Shown piece after piece: positions 15,401-28,739 of a stretch of 64,000 nt of DNA (position 1 is the stretch's first letter; each line of letters opens with the position of its first letter). Source of the stretch: Octopus vulgaris (lineage: Eukaryota); contig OX597816.1 in NCBI GenBank assembly GCA_951406725.2, positions 131,316,001-131,380,000 on the forward strand, read 5' to 3'. Made by a program: the position numbers and the translations under genes. Below the pieces are notes generated by a model. It was not told the origin of the DNA. It did not search any database and saw only the letters and a list, made by a program, of their open reading frames with translations.

Positions 15401-16450
15401 GGGTGAAGTTAGAACCCATAACTTAAAGCTTTCACATTGGTGACTGATACCTGCTGGAAAATAAGGGCCCAGTAATTTTAATATGCAGCATCTGAAAGGT
15501 AAGACAAGTTCATTGTAAGGGTATATGGAGTTCATCTGTGAATCTTTACCAGAGTCTCAAAAGTTTGTTCCCTGAAAAGCTAAATTTGAAGCATATTCCC
15601 AGACATGTAACATCTCTTCTGTAGGATATGTTAGGGTGTTAGTCTTTGATGTAAAGATACATGAGGTAGCAAGATCAATTCCCAGACCAGACTGTGTTGT
15701 GTTCTTGAGTCAGACACTGCTTCATATTGCTCCAGTTCATGCAGCTGTAGCAGTGAGTTGCAATGTCACTGGTGCCAAGCCATATTATCCTTTGCCTTTC
15801 AATTGGGTAACATTGATGACATGAAGGGGAGGCTGGAATGCATTGCCAACTGCTGGTCTTCCATAAACAACCTTGCTCAAACTTGTTCCTTGGAGTGGAA
15901 CTTTCTAGGTGCAATCCCATGGTCATTCTTGACCAAAGGGCGTTTCACCTTTATAGCTGTTGGTAATGAATCGTTTCAGTCTTATTTTGACGTAATATAT
16001 TACATTGAAAAAAAAAAACAAGTTTCCAAATATTTAAAATTAGAATAGGTGTCTATTTAACAACTTAACCCTTCAGATTTTGAAAGTTTCTCGTTGTATT
16101 CTTGTTTAAATAGTATACAGTATCTAAATTTGCATTGACACTTCACTCCACTAAGCATGTAAAAAAAAAATAAAAATTCTCAACCAGCCAAAAGGAAAAG
16201 AAATTTGGCTGTTTGTATATTGTTAGAGTCGATAAATGGCAGGAGCACTTCATACAAGTAATTGTTGAATTACTAAATAAAAATCCACATCAACATTAGA
16301 TGAAACTTGTTAGCTTCTTTTTAAAACTATTGCCATAAGACATTAATTTATATTACTTTGACTTTTCAATTTGCAGGCTACCACAAAAACCATACGTTAA
16401 AGATACAATGACCAACTAAGATATCTTGTTTACATTAAGCAGAAGCAACC

Positions 16451-19400
16451 ATGTTAGTGCACCATGTTGAAGGAGTGTGTACTTACACATATGACCAGGA
16501 TCTTTATATCAATACAAGTAACATTCGATCAAACTCTCTTCTTGACCTTTGCTGCCAATATGTTGTTCAACATGCTTCATTAACTTTGCAAGCCTTGGAT
16601 TATCTTCCATCACATCTCTATAGAACTCTCACAGGATTTGCAGTTGTTGGCCATCGAGATAGGGCTTTAAACTTCTTATTACCAAACTGGCCAGATCAGA
16701 AAATGAGTGTCTTTGATTTAGTTCATGATCATTATACATCATTTAGTACAGTAGTACCTTGTACATGGGCAGAAGAGAAATACTACTTACCCAACTTCAT
16801 TATCACAACATTTGTCCATAAACTACTTCATTGCTTAGAAAGAGAACTTCCTCTAACATTACAGTTGTTGGACTTAAGCGGTTTTAATATAGGTAAGTGC
16901 TAAATACTTTGACATTTCATATGAAATCAATGTTTTTTAAAGTCAAATGACTGGTACTTTGTATTAAATCATTTCTCATATTGCTTCTGGGCCACTTTCT
17001 CAAAATCTTTAACTGTTAAAAGAGTATGTTTGTAATCAAGTCATTTTCCATAAAAATCAGTTTCACTCTTTCGAGAATTTCAGTTTATTACCTGTAATTT
17101 CTGCAGACTCTGCCAGCTTTCATCCTGTTTAGTTTGCATGTTTACAAGTCCCTGAACTTAATGGTCAAACTATTACTAAAACGATTTTAAATAAGCATCA
17201 AGATCGCTTGACTTGATGCAGGTATTGGCGTGTGGTTTGTCAACAGTCAACTAATAAATGAAATGGTTAGGGGGATCTGACAAAGATATATCCAAGGTGT
17301 GGATGGATGACTATCGTTGGCAATGGGTTTTTAGAGCTATAACTTAAGACAAAAGTTTCCTTAGGAGACGGATATTTTCTCAGTATCACATTGTTTTCTA
17401 TTTTACCAACACGCAAGAACGCTTAAGTAAAATGTAATACTGAAAAGGTGAAATGCGCCTATATTGTGTTAAAAACACACAAATGTTACTTAACTCATAA
17501 AAAGGATGAGGGTTCCCATCAACTTCCCAGTTGAAATGGGTACTTGTACCAGTGTATAAAACATTTCACCACTTTTGTTTTAATTCTGAATAATTTCAAC
17601 ATCAGTATACACACAGGTCTTACAGCTGATAAAATGGCACATCTAAAGGCCTAACTACAGATTTCTGCCCCTCCGATATTCGATGATCATAACTTTCAGA
17701 AAAATGGATATTTTTAAATAAAATTTCCTGCGAATATGTATTATATCATGTAGATTCTGAATATACAAATTTTTTTTGGCGCGGGCGACTTTAGGAGGGG
17801 GGTGCATATTTTTAAATGAAATTCTCTGCAAATATACCTCGGACAGGAAGGGGGTTATTTTTGAAAACCATTTCCCACTCGAAGGTGTTTCGGAACAAGT
17901 CGTCCATATTTTATTTTCTCTGCTTTTCCGTAGATTTCTACACACGATGTAGTGAAAAAAGTTCAAATGGGGAATTATTTAATTCATTATAGATTATGTA
18001 ACAAAATTAATTTTAAAAAAATCTGCGATTGAGATGAAATAGATCCACAAACTACACACTTCTATATTTAACTGAACGTGCATATTTCTTATTTATGCTT
18101 CTGCCTTTCTATTAGATACGTTTACCTGGGAATTTACTAAAAAAATAATATCGTATACAACAGATTAAGTTGTCTTAATAGCATATTTTTGTGTACCAGA
18201 CCGTTAGCTGTTATTTTTAGCATAACGAGCTTTCTGTTGAGGGCTTCATTTGCCTTCATTGCACGGATGAACACACAAAACGGGGAAAATGAAACAAACA
18301 CGGACGACTTGTTCCGGACCCCCCCCCCCCCCGAGCGGGCTACCCGAAGATAAATGACATGGACCGTACCCCCCACTTTTCGGTTACACCTTCAACTATG
18401 ATATAGTGCACAAACAAATTAAGATTGGGATGGTTTTTAGAGTAATCAATAAACTGAATGTTCGGGGGAATAGATTATAAAGCTAAATCGTCACTGGTCA
18501 CTAATCTGAGAACCCAGTCGAACAAGAACTACCTTATCGCCCGCATAACCGATATGGTCTTACAATTTATCTCAATTTGCATCATCATAAGCCATAAAAC
18601 TCAAGGCATTAATTGCTACGAAAACGAACCACGTGTACGCCATTATATTTGCACGAGACAACCTAACACGTTCGTGTCACATCGTTACCAATCAATATGC
18701 TATGCATATTATAAATAGTAATAAAATACAGTAAAGAATTCAGAATTTAATACAAGACATGGATTCTGTACTGCACTGTAATTTAAAAAAAAATATTAGA
18801 GGGATCGTTTGCCGGGTACTATTTAAGAAGATTGGTCCCGGTACGCGCATTCGCTAGTCGATCCTACGACTACCTAGCAAAGTAAATAAAACAAAATTTT
18901 TTTTACACAAACTAAATGTTTTAAAACAAAATAAAACAATGGATCGACTAGTCACGACTAGCGCGGCTGCGCATCGGGACCACTCTTCTTAAATAGTTTG
19001 TCGTAGGAAAAAAAAACCCGTTTACTTTTCCTATGAGTATAGGTTAGTTATACTATAACTTCAACTCACTAACAACATATCTAGCATATGAATTTAATTT
19101 TGAAGCAGAGATCTTCATACCAAGTTGTGAAAATGACACTATTCAGAATACCAATTTGTGAAATATATATAAAAAAAAAAAAAAAAATGAACGGATGTTT
19201 TAAAACGATGTCGATATTTTCATTTATGTTTAGTGTCTTCGGGGGACACACCACTCTTTTTACAGTAAACTGTTAATTAGGTAAGAACGTAACGGCGGTG
19301 TTGCAATTTTTTGGCTCTAATTTCTGAAAACGATTGACCGCCATGTGAGCCTCACTTCAGAATAAAAATGGCATCCATATTGTCGATGAAGAAACTGCCG

Positions 19401-22400
19401 GAACGAAATTCAGAATGGTAACCGATAAATGAAATAGGATTGTTAAATGGAAATCAAATAAATGCTAGATAAATCAGACATATTAAGTGTTCAATTGATA
19501 TAAACGATAACGTAAATAACGGTGGTAGAAACGGAATATATTCATGAACAGCGAACACACAAAAAAATTCAAGTAAATAAAAAGAAAATTATACCTCCAA
19601 TACACTCCTTTATTCTTGACACGCATTACGTGAAAATGAACAATTTCTGATTAGAATAATAATAAAAAAAAAAAGAGTGAGTCTAAACAGTCATTTTCCC
19701 ATAGGTGTGTCTTTTTCCCTTAATGTTGTTAAACGAAGCCAAATTAGTTAATAAGGCCAATAGGGGGAATTGAGAGCCACGTGTTCATTAACACGGATGG
19801 AGAAAAAAGTTCTTCATTCATTCTCTACATTCATTGTCTGAAGACCTTTGAAAGTAGCACATGGAACATGAGAGACAAGTGTGTAGAGTTTGTGTGGTGA
19901 ATCTTCATCTTCATTACGTCGGCGAGAAAGCTTAACACGCACGCGGAAAGGTACATGTCGGATGCCTTTAGACCAAATGTGTTTGTTCAGCTTTGTGTCA
20001 ATACGAACATCCTTGGTTCTCATCATCTTTTCAGCGAACAACTTGATCTTTTTTATGGCTTTTGGTGCCTTTTTCTTCAGCTTCACGCCATAGACTTTCT
20101 TGTGTAGATGAATGGTACATTCCTTAGTAATAACATCATTCATAGAAGACTTCTTCCTCTCAAACTTTTGCTTCGCCATCTTTAGTCAGAAAGACCGGAA
20201 CGAGGCTTGAGGCTTAATTTATATCAGTCGCCACTACTGCCACCTAGCAGCGAGACTGAAGGGGAATAACTCTAAACTACACTTAGTTTTCGCTTTCCTA
20301 CTGCAATTGTTTACTTTCTCTTTTGTTATGCTACTGGATAAGTACATAATTAATGCGGCTTTTTTTCAACAAATTTTATTCAACAAAAACAATAACAATA
20401 TTTATCTTTAAATGACGGTCTGACCGTCTGGGATGGTGAATATGGTCTGGAATAATCATTTAAACATGTTTTTGTTCCATGTTATTGTTTTTGTTGAAAA
20501 AAAAAAGCCGCAATAATTATGCACCAACCGAAGAGTATTGTAAACTAGTTATTGTAAAATAACTAATTTTATTTCTTATATTCTATTCAATAAAGATTTA
20601 TGTATCAAATCATATATGGTAAATTTTTTTTTCAAGATTATTTGTAGAACTTAATATATGTCGTAATCTGGACTCGGAGGCGTATCAACTCGATATGACA
20701 CAACTAATTGGAAGGAGAGGGGAAGTTGGTACTAGAAGATGTGTAAGAATCATAGGGGCACGGCAGAAAATGTGTCTGGATGAAGTGGAGGCAGACGATG
20801 GAGCAGAATGCCACCTGGTGGATATAAAAGTAGAACCCACAGAGGGTTTATGATGTCCTTCCCAGGCCATCCAACCTGTTTACTTAAGACAGAAATGAAA
20901 ATACCTGCATGACACTTGTGTTCTAAGAGAGCCCCCGCTCTCCCGAACACATTCAAAGCAGCTGTTCTGAGGCACTAAATGAAGGAGACTGTGACTGCAT
21001 TCACATTTAGATTCTCAAGTGATGTTCAGCAAGAAGATCAAGTGACAGTCCACACTATGTTAAGGGAGCACGGCTGAAAAATGAACTAAGGATATCTCTG
21101 ATAGCTTGATTTCTACAGTACACAACTGGGTGATGAAAGTTGAGCTAGAGAATGAGCTAAAATTTACATCAAATATTACTGAGAATGTGTTGATACCACA
21201 TATTTTGGTTTTTGAAGCAACAAGTTAGCTCATCCTAGTGGAGTTAACTGTATATTGGGAGAGGAAGGGAGCTGAGTTCCAGAAGGTGGGCAATCAAAGA
21301 TTTGCAGATCAAACATTGGGCATTGCAAAAATGAGCAGAAGAAGAACCATCTAGAACAACTTCTAGAGGTTGCTGAGAAAGTATCTAGTTTGTTCTAGCT
21401 GAAGAGAGGTGAGTTGTGGGGTTAGTAGAGCACCATATGTTGTAAGACCCAAAACATCCAGTAACTCCAGGATTCAGTACTAGTGATGTGTCTAGGTACT
21501 GAGTCTGTAGACATTGAATTACATAATTGCTTAATGCATATACTCTTTTATTGGGTTCAGTCATTGGATTGCAGCCATACTGGGTCATCACCTTCAAAAG
21601 GTTTTAGCTGTATTGACCTCTGGCACTTATTTTATGAAGTAAAACCCAGAAACGTATTTACCTTTTAAGAGCAGAAAAACAAAGTTGACATGCATGTAAA
21701 AGCATGGTGTGGAACAAATATATGCAGTATATTTGTTCCACACTATGCTGGTATACATTTGAAATATTTTCACCTCATGTATATAAAATTTTGAAGCAGA
21801 TTATTCACTCCATCATTATTCTGAGTGCCTCTATGTGTGATCTTTTCGTTGGCAGAAAGATTGCATATTGCAAAAAAGTCTTAACAACATCAGAATGAAT
21901 TATCAATTTCATGTATATCTATGTGTGTAATTTATATATATATAGTGTAGATCCTAGTAGGGTAAAAAAAATCAGTGTATTTCCAATACAGCACTCTATG
22001 TGAGCTCTTGGCTATCTACAATCTCATACAATAACTGAGAAAAATTGGAAATCCACTGATGTACAAACTCCAGGTGCTTTACTGGTAAAAGCAGTATATA
22101 AGCATTATGAAAAGTACCATATAAGGAGATGGAGAGCAAATATAATACAACTTTGATATTTGTTACAGTTGTTTCTGTACCACTCCATTCAAACTACATT
22201 GCATGTTGATAACTGTGATGGTTGAATACATCAGAGTGGCGCTTCATCAAGTCATACCTCTTTTCATTGTGTAAAGAATATATGTATTTTATGTTGTTTG
22301 TATAGGGAGGAAACAGAATAAAGAGTTCAAAAATAATAATAAAAAATAACATTTTCTATGTTAACCACTAAAGGTTCACAAAATGATCTAGAACAATATA

Positions 22401-25400
22401 GGTCAATACAATGTGGTATTACATAAAAGAGTACGTAAAGAGAAAAATAAAATTGACAGTAAATTATTATAATGAATAATTACCCAAAAGAGGGATTCTT
22501 CTGAGAGCTACATCTGGAAACCATGCAAAACTTTGTCACTCTGACCACTAAGACAAGTGCCTTCTCCCTGTTGTCTTCATTCAGTCTAAAGGTGGCCATT
22601 CACTCAGATAGTATTCACCACTTTCATCTACCTTTTAACAAATTCACTGGAAGGTAGAACTTCCCTCTCTACTCTCATTTTCTTTTTAAAAACAATTGAA
22701 AAAGTTGATGAGAGCTTGGCCAAAGAAGGTGGTGGTGTCTGTCTTCAGCCTTTTCAATCTGGTCCACAATAGAACCGCTTTTTGCAAGAACCACCAGACA
22801 AATGAATACTGCCTGTCATTCCTGGCCAAATGAAAGTTGTGAGATGATCTCCACCAACTAACTCATTCAATGGCAAGATCCATCCTACATGTGACTGTAG
22901 GTGTTCAACATAACTCCACAAGTCAGCAGTGTTTGGGTACAGGATGAGTGCATACAGAACAGTTTCATTGCTGTACCTGCATCTCAGGCAGGTGCTACTG
23001 TGCTGTTTACCTTTAGTTGGCAGTGTTCTTCAGTAGCACTGTCAGACAAGGGATTTCTGGAAATTATCCATGGGCCCTGGCCTGAAAGTCCTCTGGAATG
23101 AACCATCTACTTGATCAGCTTGTCAGTCTCTTTGAAGATGATGTACAAGATCACTTTTATGGAAGAAAAACTTTTCTTTTTCAACCTTAGTACATGACTA
23201 GTACTTATTAACCACATGAGAATGAAAAGTAAAATTAATCACAGTAAGATTTGAATTCTACATGAAGGGGAGTTGGTAAATACCACAAAGCACTTTGCTG
23301 CTCTGTAGATTCTGCCATTTACCATCATAAGAATGGTAATTAAAATATGTTTCAAAGAAGTTTAAAGGAATGAATGATGATGTTGTTTAGCTCCATGTCA
23401 GTCCTGATTGAGCAGCTCTGTAATCAAAGTTATTTCAGGATTACATTATCTAATGTATTGGTCCTTTTTAAGATGGTTGAGTGTAATGCGAGATGCAATT
23501 TAAGTTTTGGCTAGGTAGAGTTACTATTTCAAAGTTCCTTTGTTGGTTCATTTGACTGAATGTAATATTAGTAAATTACTAACTCTATTCATAAAAAAAA
23601 AATTTTGTTTCTTTTGGAAATTATTTTTTACTGATATTTATTTCAGATGACCCAAAACTGCTGAAACTGTGTGAATATGTCATTGGAAATCAAAACTTTA
23701 CTCCTAGAAAAAATATACAATCTGGTAAGAACAATAAAAAAGTTCTTTCAATCAATTAAATTTCAGTGTATTCTAATAATTGTTTCTTTTTGTTCCTTTT
23801 ATTTGATGTCATGTTGGCATAAATTCAATAGCTTTCATTATATTATATTTTCCAAGGTAGCAAGCAAGCTTACAGAATTGTTTGTATGTCAGAGAAAGCG
23901 CTTAGTGGTATTTCTCATTACAATCAGATTTCAAAGTCAGCTGAGGTCGACTTTACCTTACATCTTTTTGGTAGGGTCAATACCAGACTTATTGCTGCCA
24001 GTCTAAGTGATTATTGCACCACCAGAAAATCACTGCTTCGTCATCATCATCATCATCATCATTTAGCATCCGCTTTCTATGCTAGCATGGGTTGGACGGG
24101 TCAACTGGAAACATAAGTGACTCATATGGGCCAAAAAACACCAACCCTGGACCATTGATCAATAGAAACGGGTCTTCTGGACTGATACGGATCCCAATGT
24201 AATTTATGTGAGGTGAAGAATTGAAGAACAGGTGACTCCTGAGTGTATAATTCCAACTGTAAAGCATGGTGGGGTGAATGTGATGATCTGGGGATGTTTT
24301 GCATGCAATAGTGCTAGAAAGGTAACAAGAATATTGAACCAAAACAGGTATCACTCTATCCCCCAGCATCATGCCAGTCTATCTGGGATGAGACTGATCA
24401 ATGATAATTTTGTGCTGATGCAAGATAACAATCCTAAACATACTTCTAAGCTATGCGAAAAAGGTGACTGTAATGGAATGGCCAGCCCAATCTCCCGATT
24501 GCAATGCCATGGAAATTGCGTGGGATGAATTGGATCAGAGAGACAGAAAGCAACAACCAAGTAGTGCAGAAACCCTCTGGACACTCTTACATGAAGAGTG
24601 GCAAAATATTACCAATGAATATTTGCTTTCATTGCTTGAAAGAATGCCCAGGGTAGGGATCAAATAGACCAAAGCACCAATCCTCATTTGTAATGTTTCA
24701 TATTTAGTAACTTCAATTCTTACAATGTCACTTGCTATTGCCTAACCTTATCTAATTTAATTGAAACATTTGCAATTTTTAACTTGTGTCAGGTCATCTC
24801 TTTCTCAATATATTCATGATTGAATTCCAGCTAATATCCAACATTTTACTCATGTGCAAACCTAATTTCTGTATTAATATATCTATTTCTGTATTCATTA
24901 GTAATCTGCGACAGCTAATCACACTGCTGCAACAATTCTCTTTCATAGGCTAATTTTGTACCAATATGGTAATAAGCAAAGAAAAATACAGTTTGAAATC
25001 TGTATATATATTATCAATGAATCTTTATTTCAAAAATATATGGCATAATTTTTCTGATGTTTTATTTTTCAGTGGCAATACGGTTAAATGCTGTTTTGAC
25101 TAGAGCAGATACTTTCAAGAAACTGGGAGAAGCTTTGGCAAAATGTATGAATTGTCGCTTAAAAATACAAATCAACAGACTAGACATTCGATCAATGCCA
25201 TACATTGTTATCAAACGTTTGCTGGAACTACTGAGTGGCAGAGAGGTAATTGAATTTTTATTTTTTAAAAGTACTGTATTTGATGGCATAAAAAAATACA
25301 CAGACATATTAAACACACACCCAATATCAGCAGCACATGTGCAGGATAAAGGTTTTTAGTAAATTAACCCTTCAAACTGGCCCAAATATTCAACCTGTTT

Positions 25401-26559
25401 TATGTTCAAACCAACCAGATCCAGCCTCTCAGACATATCTTTCAATGTCATTCTAAAAATAAACAATCACATCATCAAAATTTTGAAGCTGTGACTAATG
25501 CGTGACTAATTCAAAACAATGTGAATAAATAAGCATTATATTTGACAAAGTAATCTGAATGCTTAAGGGTTAAAGCTTTTGGGAGACTCAACTTCACATA
25601 TAGGACCTGGGGTGATTTTTTTAGAGACATTTATTTTTGGAAAAAAAAAATGGTGCATCTTATATACTATCAAATAGTCATTTTCTAAACTAGAATGAAA
25701 GAATAACACACTTCCTTCATTCCACTTTGAGGAAGTGATACTACTTCCTTAGCTTTGCAATCAAGTAGAAAGTGTTGGGTGCTGAATGTAATGATGAATC
25801 AACTCTATTTAAGAGCTAATTCATGGCTGGATAATGTTGAGCTTCATTTTTTTTTTCATACTAGATAGGACATGGACCAGGATAACAAAGCAAATGTATG
25901 TCAGAATAAAAGTAAACATATGGGCAATTCATCTGAGTTGTTAGAATTAGAACAGATAGAGGTCTGCCCACCCATGCGGTAAAGGTGGTGCACCTATATT
26001 TGATTAGACAAGCATAGGGGTACAATGTAGAAGCGACAGTGGTATAAGTGAATGTACAACAGAACTAACAATTGAAATGAACCCCGAATTCAGCTCAAGA
26101 ATTTAATTGTACTATAGGTGCAGGTGTGGATGTGTGGTTAAGAAGTTTGCTTCCCAACCACATTATCTCACATGTGTGGTACCTTGGGCAAGTGTCTTTC
26201 ACTACATTGAAGCTCATCATTTTCCACCCATGAATTAGCTCTTATTTGCTATATGGAATCTGAAAGAGGCCCATCATATATATAACTAGTGACTGAAATT
26301 TCTGGCAATTTCCTGTGCTTGAGAAGCCACATTGAGCTAAGTGAAATCACAGTTGTGGCCAGTGCCACGTGAAAGGTACCTTTGCCGATGACATGTAAAA
26401 GACACCCAGTATACTCAGTGGAGTGATTTATGTTAGGCAGGCCATCCAGTTGTAGAAACCAAGCCAAAACAGACTGGAGTCTGATGGTAAGCTCTCTGGC
26501 TTATCAGCTCCAGCCAAACTGTCTTACCCATGCTATCATGAAAAATGGATGCTAAATGA

Positions 26560-26598
<39 letters not shown>

Positions 26599-27877
26599 CG
26601 TGTGTGTGTGTATCTTTGTCTTGACATTACATGGTTGTTGTAAATGAATGTCACTGTCATTCTTTTCCAATATTCTACAAAAGCATGTCTGGCCAAAGAG
26701 GAAATATTACCCTACTAGGAAATAAATGAGAGCTGGTAACAGGAAGGGCCTCTGGCTATAGAAAATCTGCCTCAATAAGCACTGTGCAACCCAATCAAGC
26801 ATAGAAAAGTGGACATTAAAATGATGATAATACAAAGTACTCAACAACTTAAGTGAAATGTTAATTATTATTAATATCAGCCTGCCATTTCTGTTCACAA
26901 CCTATGTGATCATCAAAAGTTTATAGGTACTAAGCTATCCTTTTTAAAATGAAATATCAAGTAAAATATGTATGTACATGTATATAATCTCTTGTTTGAC
27001 TTCATGTTCAATGACATGAATGGAAATGGTGTCTTATGCAGAATTTGATGTTATGTGTCTTATTAATTATGATTAATATTGTTGTGTTCTGTTAAATTTC
27101 TTTCTTTTCAATTTACAGTATATTCATGAAATCACTCTGAGGTACAACCATTTGATGGTGCGTGGAGTAGTAGCCTTGTCACCTTTCCTTCGAATAATGA
27201 CAAGGTTGACCCATCTAGATCTGTCTTGCAACAACATACGCCTGCAGGATCATTTTAACTTTGGTACACAAATTCTAGGAGAACTTTTTGCACAGCTCAG
27301 CTGCTTGAAAGAACTGAATATGAGCAACAACTGGATAAAAGGAAACCTTCATTTACTACTTTCTAGAATATCACAGCCTCTTGAATCTCTCTGTATCTCT
27401 GGTTGTGGTATATCTATTGGAGATTTAAACTATCTGTCCAAATGTATTCACACCACTGGCCTAATTCATTTGGACTTGAGTGAAAACAATTTAAGTGACA
27501 AATTACAACCCATGTTAGAATTTTTAAGTGCAGCCCGCAAAAACTTAAAGCATTTTGAAGTACAAAATTCCAGGCTTTCAAGTCACCACATGGAAGATCT
27601 TGGAAGAATGGTTTGTCAAATGGAAAAACTCGAGTACCTAAATTTGTGTTCAACAGTAATTTGTGAGTCTGACATGTTTAAATTGTTACGAACAATCTGC
27701 AATGCTGCTAACTTAAAACACATATGTTTTACTAGTCATATTGAGATGGGTCTTAGTATAGACAGCACTGGTTTTATAGCAGGAGATATACCAAAACAAA
27801 TTCACACAATACTTCTACAGAACAGAAGAAATACAGGACTTAAAGTCTATTTTAAAATTACTCCTGATACTTACTAA
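16451..27877 (+). CDS. LRRC14: LRRC14/PRAME-family leucine-rich repeat protein (putative Cullin2-Elongin BC substrate receptor), 483 aa
   Basis: Coding exons 16451-16892, 23647-23724, 25073-25245 and 27119-27877, all GT-AG with phases 1,1,0, total 1452 nt. N-terminal BC-box [10 protein letters not shown] and Cul2-box-like [17 protein letters not shown], and C-terminal RI-like LRRs ([33 protein letters not shown]). Exact orthology (LRRC14, LRRC14B or PRAME-like) is not resolved. Confidence 0.8.
19814..20179 (-). CDS. RPL31: 60S ribosomal protein L31 (eL31), intronless and divergent, nested antisense in an LRRC14-like intron
   Basis: Intact 121-aa ORF with [29 protein letters not shown] and [15 protein letters not shown]. 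Confidence 0.95.
20180..20255 (-). promoter_or_regulatory. RPL31 core promoter: TATA box, TCT initiator (5' TOP) and CTCF-like motif
   Basis: Minus strand TATAAATTAAGCCTCAAGCCTCGTTCCGGT-CTTTCTGACTAAAG-ATG. TATAAA lies 30 nt before the C of TCTTTCT (YCTYTYY). CTGCTAGGTGGCAGTA lies just upstream. Confidence 0.7.
20340..20530. mobile_element. Mariner-type MITE
   Basis: Inverted ends gtacataattaatgcggcttttttt / aaaaaagccgcaataattatgcaccaacc. The right end resembles Hsmar1/Made1-type TIRs (GGTTGGTGCA..AATTGCGG). Confidence 0.65.
24114..24665 (+). mobile_element. Tc1-like DDE transposase fragment (pseudogenised)
   Basis: [26 protein letters not shown] and [15 protein letters not shown] across frameshifts. 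Confidence 0.9.
25364..25572. mobile_element. piggyBac-like MITE (TTAA-CCC...GGG-TTAA)
   Basis: ttaacccttc..aatgcttaagggttaa. Same family at 47168-47394 and 63384-63610, with partial copies near 13250-13371, 14205-14550 and 15281-15405. Confidence 0.7.
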
Positions 27878-28739
27878 TTTGCATTTTGTATATCATTTCT
27901 AATTTTATAAAGCATTCATATATAAATGATATTTGAAATCAAAACATGCATCATCTATATTTTGCGAAATAAGAATTTCATTGTAGATATTTTCAAATGA
28001 TGCATTGATGTGGCTGTGTGGTAAGAGGTTTGCTTCTCAACCACAATTTCTAGTTCAGTCCCATCATGTGGTACTTTGGGCAAGTACCTTCTATTATAGT
28101 CCTGGACCGACCAAATCCTAGTGATTAGGTTTAGTTGGAAAAAAAAAAAACTGAAAGAAGTATGTCCTGTACATATATGTGTGTGTGTGAGTGTGTCCTG
28201 TTGTCTTCACATTGGATGATAGTTGTAAAATAGTTGTCCAGTGTCATTTACAATATTTTACAAGAAAATGTCTGACCAATGCAAACATGGAAAAGTGGAC
28301 ATTTAGGTGATAATGATGACATTTTCAAGCCAGAATTCTACTAATGAAAACAAATATTTACTTCTGTTGAGGGAAGTTGTGGAATGGGGAGACTCAGGAA
28401 GACATGGAACGAAGTACTGAAAGCTGATCTCAAAATGCTAAGCCTTATGAAATATGTAGTACATTGCTGTATTCAAGATCTGCCCACAATAACAGACTCA
28501 CAGACTTGATATTCTAAAACCAAGGTGCCATGTAAAAAGCAGCTGGTACACTCTGAAGTTGTTGGCATTGGGAAGGGCATCAAGCTGCAGAAACCAAACC
28601 AAAACAGACTATTGAACCTGATGCAGACCTTGGCCTTGCTAGTTCCTGTCCTGTCAAGCCGTCCCCACCATGCCAACATGGAAAACAGATGTTAAATGAT
28701 GATGTTTTCAGTTGATTAATATTTGAGTTTGTTTGTTGA

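What the first reader, a model, noticed from the sequence alone, without database searches (positions are those of the whole stretch)
19600..20255. Intronless, divergent RPL31 with its own ribosomal-protein promoter, nested antisense in an intron of the LRRC14-like gene
Seen: an intact 121-codon ORF with no introns, no adjacent poly(A) tract and no obvious TSD. It has TATAAA exactly 30 nt before a TCT initiator, a 14-nt pyrimidine-start 5' UTR and AATAAA about 200 nt downstream (19613-19608). Known: metazoan RPL31 genes usually have introns, TCT/TOP starts mark ribosomal protein genes, and retrocopies do not carry upstream promoter sequence. Inference: this is a functional retrogene or paralog (specialised-ribosome candidate) or a relocated intron-lost main copy, not a dead pseudogene.
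Basis: partly seen in the sequence, partly recalled or inferred. Interest (0 to 1): 0.75.

Follow-up and report, generated by a model that had tools for sequence, protein, structure and literature searches.

The report
Octopus sole RPL31: parentless retrogene
The only gene found in this octopus genome for the core ribosome protein eL31 has no introns, is transcribed from inside another gene's intron, and is likely a reverse-transcribed copy that replaced the original gene, changing many otherwise fixed amino acids before becoming conserved again.

Summary
In detail: an intact, intronless 121-codon RPL31 (19814-20179, minus strand), TATAAA at -30, start C at 20193 (a cDNA contig ends there on a template-switch adapter), AATAAA at 19614-19609, inside a 6,754-nt intron of a spliced LRRC14-like gene. 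It is not a specialised paralog. Five genome searches found no other RPL31. Its O. bimaculoides ortholog (117/121 identical) is the eL31 modelled in the octopus ribosome structure 9EHO. RPL31 and LRRC14 have consecutive accessions in O. bimaculoides and Argonauta. In other organisms 30 of 33 distinct RPL31 loci are interrupted at codon 74, and 5 of 6 control ribosomal-protein families here show exon-split genes. Best reading: an orphan retrogene that replaced its parent before Octopus and Argonauta split. The protein took a burst of change (16 near-invariant sites, 13 within residues 28-63) and then froze. Caveats: the RPL32 control parent was not found, so the searches or the assembly can miss a parent; intron loss in place is not excluded; no dN/dS or tissue data. 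It is a known kind of event, unusual for a ribosomal-protein gene. The scan had no look-alike note.

The parts
19814..20179 (-). RPL31/eL31 coding sequence, 121 aa plus stop, no intron
   Evidence: 117/121 identical to O. bimaculoides XP_014788910.1, whose sequence equals 9EHO chain d
20180..20193 (-). 14-nt 5' UTR starting at C+1 (20193) with a 6-pyrimidine TOP-like tract
   Evidence: X6 contig ends at 20193 on an adapter-like loose end
20218..20223 (-). TATAAA at -30
19592..19813 (-). 3' UTR, with AATAAA at 19614-19609, 3' end near 19592 and a T-rich tract downstream
   Evidence: (X6 contig ends 19592, X1 19605)
16893..23646 (+). host intron (6,754 nt, GT-AG) of the LRRC14-like gene
16376..16892 (+). 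LRRC14-like exon holding the start codon (ATG 16451)
23647..23724 (+). LRRC14-like 78-nt exon
   Evidence: matches P0234 and P0235
25073..25245 (+). LRRC14-like exon
27119..27877 (+). LRRC14-like last coding exon (LRR repeats)
20342..20524 (.). 183-nt inverted-repeat element (MITE-like) about 150 nt upstream of the start; role untested

Best explanation
This intronless, transcribed gene is the only RPL31 found in this octopus genome and is likely an orphan retrogene: a reverse-transcribed RPL31 mRNA that inserted antisense into an LRRC14-like intron and replaced its lost, intron-bearing parent. Shown: intact ORF, start at C 20193 with TATA at -30, poly(A) signal, nesting in a spliced host intron, no second copy in five searches, an ortholog modelled in the octopus ribosome, and a burst of substitutions on the stem of the clade followed by near-stasis. 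Inferred: (1) a full-length cDNA brought the TOP/TCT +1 to +6 sequence with it, and the TATA box came from the insertion site or arose later; (2) while parent and copy coexisted, relaxed selection let 16 near-invariant residues change; (3) the parent was then lost and the copy came back under housekeeping constraint; (4) this happened before Octopus and Argonauta split. It works as the ordinary structural eL31 at the 60S exit tunnel.
For: Sole copy: own protein, Pfam, chiton and abalone RPL31 and the 639-nt DNA each gave only this locus as a real hit. The five other places (E 1-7) are 25-32% identical where the search gave an identity, or give only short noise alignments. Sensitivity: the same family search found exon-split RPL35A, RPL34, RPL36, RPS26 and RPL27, down to pieces of 22-30 aa, and decayed stop-containing copies for RPL36, RPS26 and RPL27. 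Main copy: 9EHO chain d, from the O. bimaculoides ribosome, carries the same four differences as RefSeq XP_014788910.1 '60S ribosomal protein L31'. The second O. bimaculoides entry, a 70-aa fragment, is also of the derived type. None of the 120 listed of 1,044 hits to chiton RPL31 carries a cephalopod name. Age: LRRC14 and RPL31 have consecutive accessions and equal contig lengths in O. bimaculoides (XP_014788909.1/910.1) and Argonauta (GAB1600592.1/593.1). Ancestral introns: 30 of 33 distinct RPL31 loci (from 54 examined, L036-L089) are interrupted at codon 74, and breaks near codons 33 and 112 recur; the window gene runs through all three. Burst then stasis: stem branch 0.32-0.36 with support 100/100, tips 0-0.031; the window lineage has more changes in all 24 of 24 relative-rate tests, 17 with P < 0.05. 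13 of 16 fixed changes lie in residues 28-63 (Fisher P 1e-4; the window was chosen after seeing the data). Retroposition of RP mRNAs happens in this genome: an intact RPL32 copy with a long poly(A) tail abuts a reverse-transcriptase ORF.
Against: The RPL32 control failed: family and DNA searches found only the poly(A)-tailed intronless copy and an 81-bp decayed fragment, with no split gene. A parent can therefore be missing from the assembly or from the search. No poly(A) remnant or target-site duplication is left. The parent's ancestral position could not be checked, so intron loss in place is not excluded. [quoted passage not shown] The 9EHO sequence may come from the annotation; I did not see the map, and the paper's main text and one supplement never mention eL31. 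X1 and X5 contigs extend upstream through the TATA box. 3 of 33 outside loci are also uninterrupted at codon 74. No dN/dS was computed.
Confidence: 0.68

Rival explanations
1. It is the sole, original RPL31 locus. It lost all its introns in place by recombination with its own cDNA, or moved as DNA and then lost them, and so kept its native promoter.
For: TCT-type start with TATA at the canonical distance; at least 60% of mammalian RP promoters have a TATA or A/T-rich motif (PMC554972, passages). No retro-insertion scars. The related unnamed protein P0125 has an N-terminal extension rich in Phe ending Lys-Val, which could be a translated splice acceptor, that is an intronless CDS that still has a 5' intron (inference, DNA not seen).
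Against: All three coding introns and any 5' intron are gone, while 5 of 6 control RP families show exon-split genes here. Loss of every intron is held most parsimoniously to be retroposition (PMC3548309, passages). The substitution burst fits a period of redundancy better than a never-duplicated gene (inference). Three candidate first exons, predicted only, for RPL35A (two) and RPS26 (one) show no TATA (weak).
Confidence: 0.2
2. It is a tissue-specific, specialised-ribosome paralog, and a canonical intron-bearing RPL31 exists but is missing from the assembly or was missed.
For: Accelerated divergence clustered in one region. The RPL32 control shows that a split gene can go unfound. Tissues of the runs are not on record. 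Contigs were laid at 90% likeness, which would not show a conventional transcript.
Against: Five negative searches. The RefSeq RPL31 and the ribosome-structure eL31 of O. bimaculoides are this ortholog. No cephalopod-named conventional eL31 among 120 listed of 1,044 hits or in the four mollusc clusters opened. Contigs cover the gene in runs of three studies.
Confidence: 0.1
3. It is a processed pseudogene that is intact by chance.
For: No introns; decayed RP retrocopies exist in this genome.
Against: Capped-end cDNA at the predicted start; only 4 of 121 residues differ from each of O. bimaculoides and Argonauta; no parent found.
Confidence: 0.02

Closest known systems
Orphan retrogenes / retrogene replacement (25 human cases, PMC3548309; 10 mammalian families, PMC4772013; amphioxus SYCP1, PMC5803294)
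   Same: Single-exon gene, multi-exon orthologs elsewhere, no parent in the genome, strong conservation afterwards.
   Different: It is a core ribosomal-protein gene, whereas parents of known orphans are lowly expressed and 9 of 10 used CpG-island promoters. This one has a compact TATA plus TCT/TOP promoter, sits antisense in a host intron, and shows a substitution burst.
Octopus bimaculoides eL31 (XP_014788910.1; PDB 9EHO chain d)
   Same: 117/121 identical; same neighbour by consecutive accession.
   Different: It is the ortholog and is already annotated as a protein. The structure paper does not discuss eL31 (0 mentions in the main text), and its gene structure was not seen here.
Retroposed RP paralogs of mammals and Drosophila (PMC4219774; PMC12704716 search listing only; RPL10L and RPL39L recalled)
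   Same: Intronless and diverged RP gene.
   Different: Those coexist with a ubiquitous intron-bearing parent and have narrower expression; here no parent was found.
TCT/TOP ribosomal-protein promoters (PMC554972; PMC8047918)
   Same: Starts at C in a pyrimidine tract; TATA at about -30.
   Different: G at -2 and only six pyrimidines; it lacks the intron that separates the regulatory 5' end from the coding part in most mammalian RP genes.

Membership tests
eL31 (PF01198) | Full-length match above the curated cut-off | tested here: met
   133.2 bits against 25, profile positions 1-81 of 82
Orphan retrogene | Single exon where orthologs are multi-exon, spanning parental exon junctions | tested here: met
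   30 of 33 distinct unnamed loci are interrupted at codon 74; breaks near codons 33 and 112 recur; the window ORF and its transcript are continuous. No named mollusc gene structure was seen.
Orphan retrogene | No multi-exon parent in the same genome | tested here: met
   Five searches negative; controls found a split gene in 5 of 6 families, RPL32 not, so this carries a real caveat
Orphan retrogene | Locus differs from the ancestral parental locus | not testable with these tools
   No outgroup mollusc genomes held; the host protein found only two relatives, both octopods
Orphan retrogene | Expressed | tested here: met
   Contigs in 3 of 4 runs laid, adapter-marked 5' end in X6; the runs' RNA status is a guess on record
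Orphan retrogene | Purifying selection (Ka/Ks well below 1) | tested here: inconclusive
   Protein level only: 4 of 121 differences to O. bimaculoides and 4 of 121 to Argonauta; no ortholog DNA for dN/dS
Young processed retrocopy or pseudogene | Genomic poly(A) tail, target-site duplication, or broken frame | tested here: not met
   intact frame
Specialised-ribosome paralog | Coexisting canonical paralog | tested here: not met
Specialised-ribosome paralog | Tissue-restricted expression or incorporation | not testable with these tools
   Tissues not on record; contigs only
TCT/TOP ribosomal-protein promoter | Start at C within a pyrimidine tract | tested here: met
   Start mapped at C 20193 in one run; six pyrimidines; G at -2
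TCT/TOP ribosomal-protein promoter | TRF2-dependent transcription and TOP translational control | not testable with these tools
   Needs experiments

The most novel reading that the evidence does not exclude
Retrogene replacement installed a remodelled eL31 in every octopod ribosome: 13 otherwise near-invariant residues in positions 28-63 changed, while the acidic RNEDEDS loop stayed. This changes how the exit-tunnel rim or its chaperones (RAC, NAC) work and contributes, beside the H88 rRNA break, to the high fidelity and low aggregation reported for octopus ribosomes. Octopus may also have more than one such replacement, RPL32 being a candidate.
Probability: 0.1. Interest if true: 0.72.

Novelty: new member of a known kind. 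Interest (0 to 1): 0.42.

Why it matters
Animal ribosomal-protein genes shed many retrocopies but are not expected to be replaced by one, because a copy must match very high, ubiquitous expression and the intron-linked regulation of its parent. This is a clear candidate for such a replacement, with a mapped start and a structure of the product in the ribosome. It offers a natural test of whether a TOP/TCT start carried in the mRNA plus a TATA box is enough for RP-level expression without introns. The rewritten 28-63 segment of eL31, a protein tied to translational fidelity and RAC/NAC docking in fungi (PMC12790415, passages), is a lead for the octopus ribosome work. The protein's basic job is ordinary.

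Tried and rejected
Second RPL31 or parent remnant: the five weak places L003, L004, L005, L007 and L097 (E 1-7) gave 25-40% identity over 29-73 residues, or higher only over 11 residues or fewer, and were rejected as noise. C7 RPL32 fragment as the parent's last exon: rejected, since it is decayed and no upstream exon lies within 19.6 kb. Restorative A-to-I editing: 8 of the 16 fixed changes are G-to-A type (five R to K, E44K, G54R, G33K) against 3 of A-to-G type, P 0.23. No A-to-G difference was listed inside the gene, but contigs drop variants, so this is no test of absence. No RPL31 entry was found in the held supplements of PMC8382921 (1 file) or PMC6881472 (3 files); their site-level tables may not be held. 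TSD and poly(A) search: none. Comparison with other octopus RP promoters: first exons could only be guessed, three candidates in 2 of 5 genes, so little weight. No RNA holder was listed on record, and X12 showed no cover over 19559-20009; neither is used as evidence. Contig depths were not used to rank expression. The metagenome scan found no cephalopod-type locus (best full-length identity 70%). DNA-run depth and intron status in related species were not obtained, so read-based copy number is open. The organism behind P0002 (91% identical) could not be named, so whether the derived protein is octopod-only or coleoid-wide is open. Literature: searches listed no paper on an intronless or retroposed cephalopod RPL31 (search listings; one search showed 15 of 1,404, none with RPL31 mentions); subscription journals are mostly not held. 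Peisker 2008 was not held; PMC8060413 has no eL31 mention.

Full report
Observation. The minus strand holds an intact 121-codon ORF at 19814-20179 that matches Pfam Ribosomal_L31e over 81 of 82 positions. Only 0.6% of window positions have TATAAA at -33..-28, and the strict TATA plus TCT pattern occurs once on the two strands; a looser one occurs 7 times. There is no poly(A) remnant or flanking direct repeat.

Transcription. I laid contigs of 4 of the 20 listed runs. Three cover the gene without a joint. In X6 the contig spans 19592-20193 and then continues with 23 letters that I recognise from memory as the reverse complement of the SMART template-switch adapter. This puts the mRNA 5' end exactly on the predicted C and shows the minus strand. 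X1 and X5 contigs reach 20238 and 20229, so some molecules extend upstream (minor starts, host pre-mRNA or DNA). The runs are RNA by guess only, tissues are unknown, and contig depth cannot rank expression.

Host. X12 contig 10 splices three exons of a plus-strand gene with about 78 letters unplaced. Of four candidate 78-nt exons, 23647-23724 completes a 483-aa protein 482/483 identical to O. bimaculoides LRRC14 and 429/483 to Argonauta LRRC14-like. RPL31 sits antisense in the 6,754-nt intron 16893-23646.

Copy number. Searches of the 2.8-Gb genome with the protein, the Pfam family, chiton and abalone RPL31 and the gene's DNA gave this locus as the only real match; five weak places were noise. 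As controls, the family search found exon-split RPL35A, RPL34, RPL36, RPS26 and RPL27. The sixth control counts against me. For RPL32, family and DNA searches found only an intronless, poly(A)-tailed copy and a decayed 81-bp fragment. Either the assembly or the search can lack a parent, or RPL32 is a second replacement.

Independent evidence that this is the main gene. The best PDB match is 9EHO chain d, the O. bimaculoides ribosome (PMC13321053; passages, section 5 and a supplement search seen). It differs from the window protein at the same four sites as RefSeq XP_014788910.1, '60S ribosomal protein L31'. The paper never mentions eL31, and the modelled sequence may follow the annotation. A second O. 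bimaculoides entry of 70 aa is of the same derived type. No cephalopod name appears among the 120 listed of 1,044 hits to chiton RPL31. The window protein is already in NCBI and UniRef. LRRC14 and RPL31 carry consecutive accessions and equal contig lengths in O. bimaculoides and in Argonauta hians. This indicates adjacency in both, although I did not see their DNA.

Ancestral state. A metagenome scan returned 60 loci. I examined 54 and left out the six at E 4e-4 or worse. They collapse to 33 distinct loci; 30 are interrupted at codon 74 and 3 are continuous. 19 of 33 have a GT at the codon-112 position, and a break near codon 33 recurs. These contigs are unnamed, so this shows the common state in other eukaryotes, not in named molluscs. 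In mammals all functional RP genes have introns (PMC554972, passages).

Divergence. The window protein is on average 65.5% identical to 11 other molluscs, which average 80.3% among themselves. In a 27-row tree the window, O. bimaculoides, Argonauta and the unnamed P0002 form a clade (100/100) on a stem of 0.32-0.36 changes per site, with tips of 0-0.031. All 24 relative-rate tests lean the same way, 17 at P < 0.05, and they are not independent. Sixteen columns conserved in at least 80% of 23 outgroups changed in all four; 13 lie in residues 28-63 (post hoc Fisher P 1e-4). The RNEDEDS loop is unchanged. By contrast RPL32 keeps 78% of its top-hit score (9EHO chain, identical) against human, RPL31 64% (one control only). 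P0002 is unnamed; if it is a squid, the change is coleoid-wide.

Mechanism. The best fit is retrogene replacement: a full-length cDNA, carrying its own TOP/TCT +1 to +6, inserted antisense in the LRRC14-like intron below or near a TATA box; redundancy allowed the burst; the parent was lost; constraint returned. The intact RPL32 copy with AATAAA, a long A tail and an adjoining reverse-transcriptase frame shows that RP mRNAs are retroposed in this genome. The insertion, the promoter's origin and the order of events are inferred. Intron loss in place (0.2) cannot be excluded without outgroup synteny. A specialised paralog (0.1) needs a parent that five searches did not find.

Comparison. Orphan retrogenes are known (PMC3548309 and PMC5803294, passages; PMC4772013, passages and section 13). 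Their parents are usually lowly expressed, and RP parents are reported to keep ubiquitous expression (PMC4219774, passages), so an RP case is unusual. Eight searches listed no paper on this gene's structure. eL31 affects fidelity and binds RAC and NAC in fungi (PMC12790415, passages), which makes the rewritten segment a lead but not a result. The scan has notes on other retrogenes in this genome and none resembling this protein.

Verdict. The feature is real and functional and is the main RPL31, most likely an orphan retrogene. It is a new member of a known kind. Interest 0.42.

Noticed in passing
L008 (G000:C11:67551188-67554511), minus strand: Intact intronless RPL32, 133/133 identical to 9EHO eL32, followed by AATAAA, a long A run and directly a long reverse-transcriptase frame (Pfam RVT_1; Penelope-like by recall). 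It looks like an mRNA-retroelement chimera. No intron-bearing RPL32 was found, so it is either a young retrocopy whose parent is missing from the assembly or a second replacement.
   Followed up: partly
G000:C7:37623110-37623190 (L028): 81-bp decayed fragment of the RPL32 3' end, 90% identical, with no upstream exons within 19.6 kb.
   Followed up: yes
window 20342-20524: Inverted-repeat element (arms of 24-25 nt, 92-96% complementary) about 150 nt upstream of the RPL31 start; single copy in the window.
   Followed up: partly
window 18818-18997: Second inverted-repeat element (43-nt arms, 81% complementary, 94-nt spacer) in the same host intron.
   Followed up: no
window RPL31 codons 28-63: Eight fixed changes (five R to K, E44K, G54R, G33K) are of the kind A-to-I editing could reverse; not significant against the reverse type (P 0.23), and no editing was seen in contigs.
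   Followed up: partly
L015, L017, L021, L025, L026: Stop-containing, apparently decayed copies of RPL36, RPS26 and RPL27 on other contigs.
   Followed up: no
protein P0125 (unnamed, Logan): The 91%-identical relative has a 25-aa N-terminal extension that reads like a translated polypyrimidine tract and splice acceptor, hinting at an intronless CDS with a 5' intron in that organism.
   Followed up: no
window 16376-27945: The LRRC14-like host is strongly conserved in octopods (482/483 and 429/483), yet the search of longer proteins returned only these two relatives at E 1e-15 or better.
   Followed up: partly
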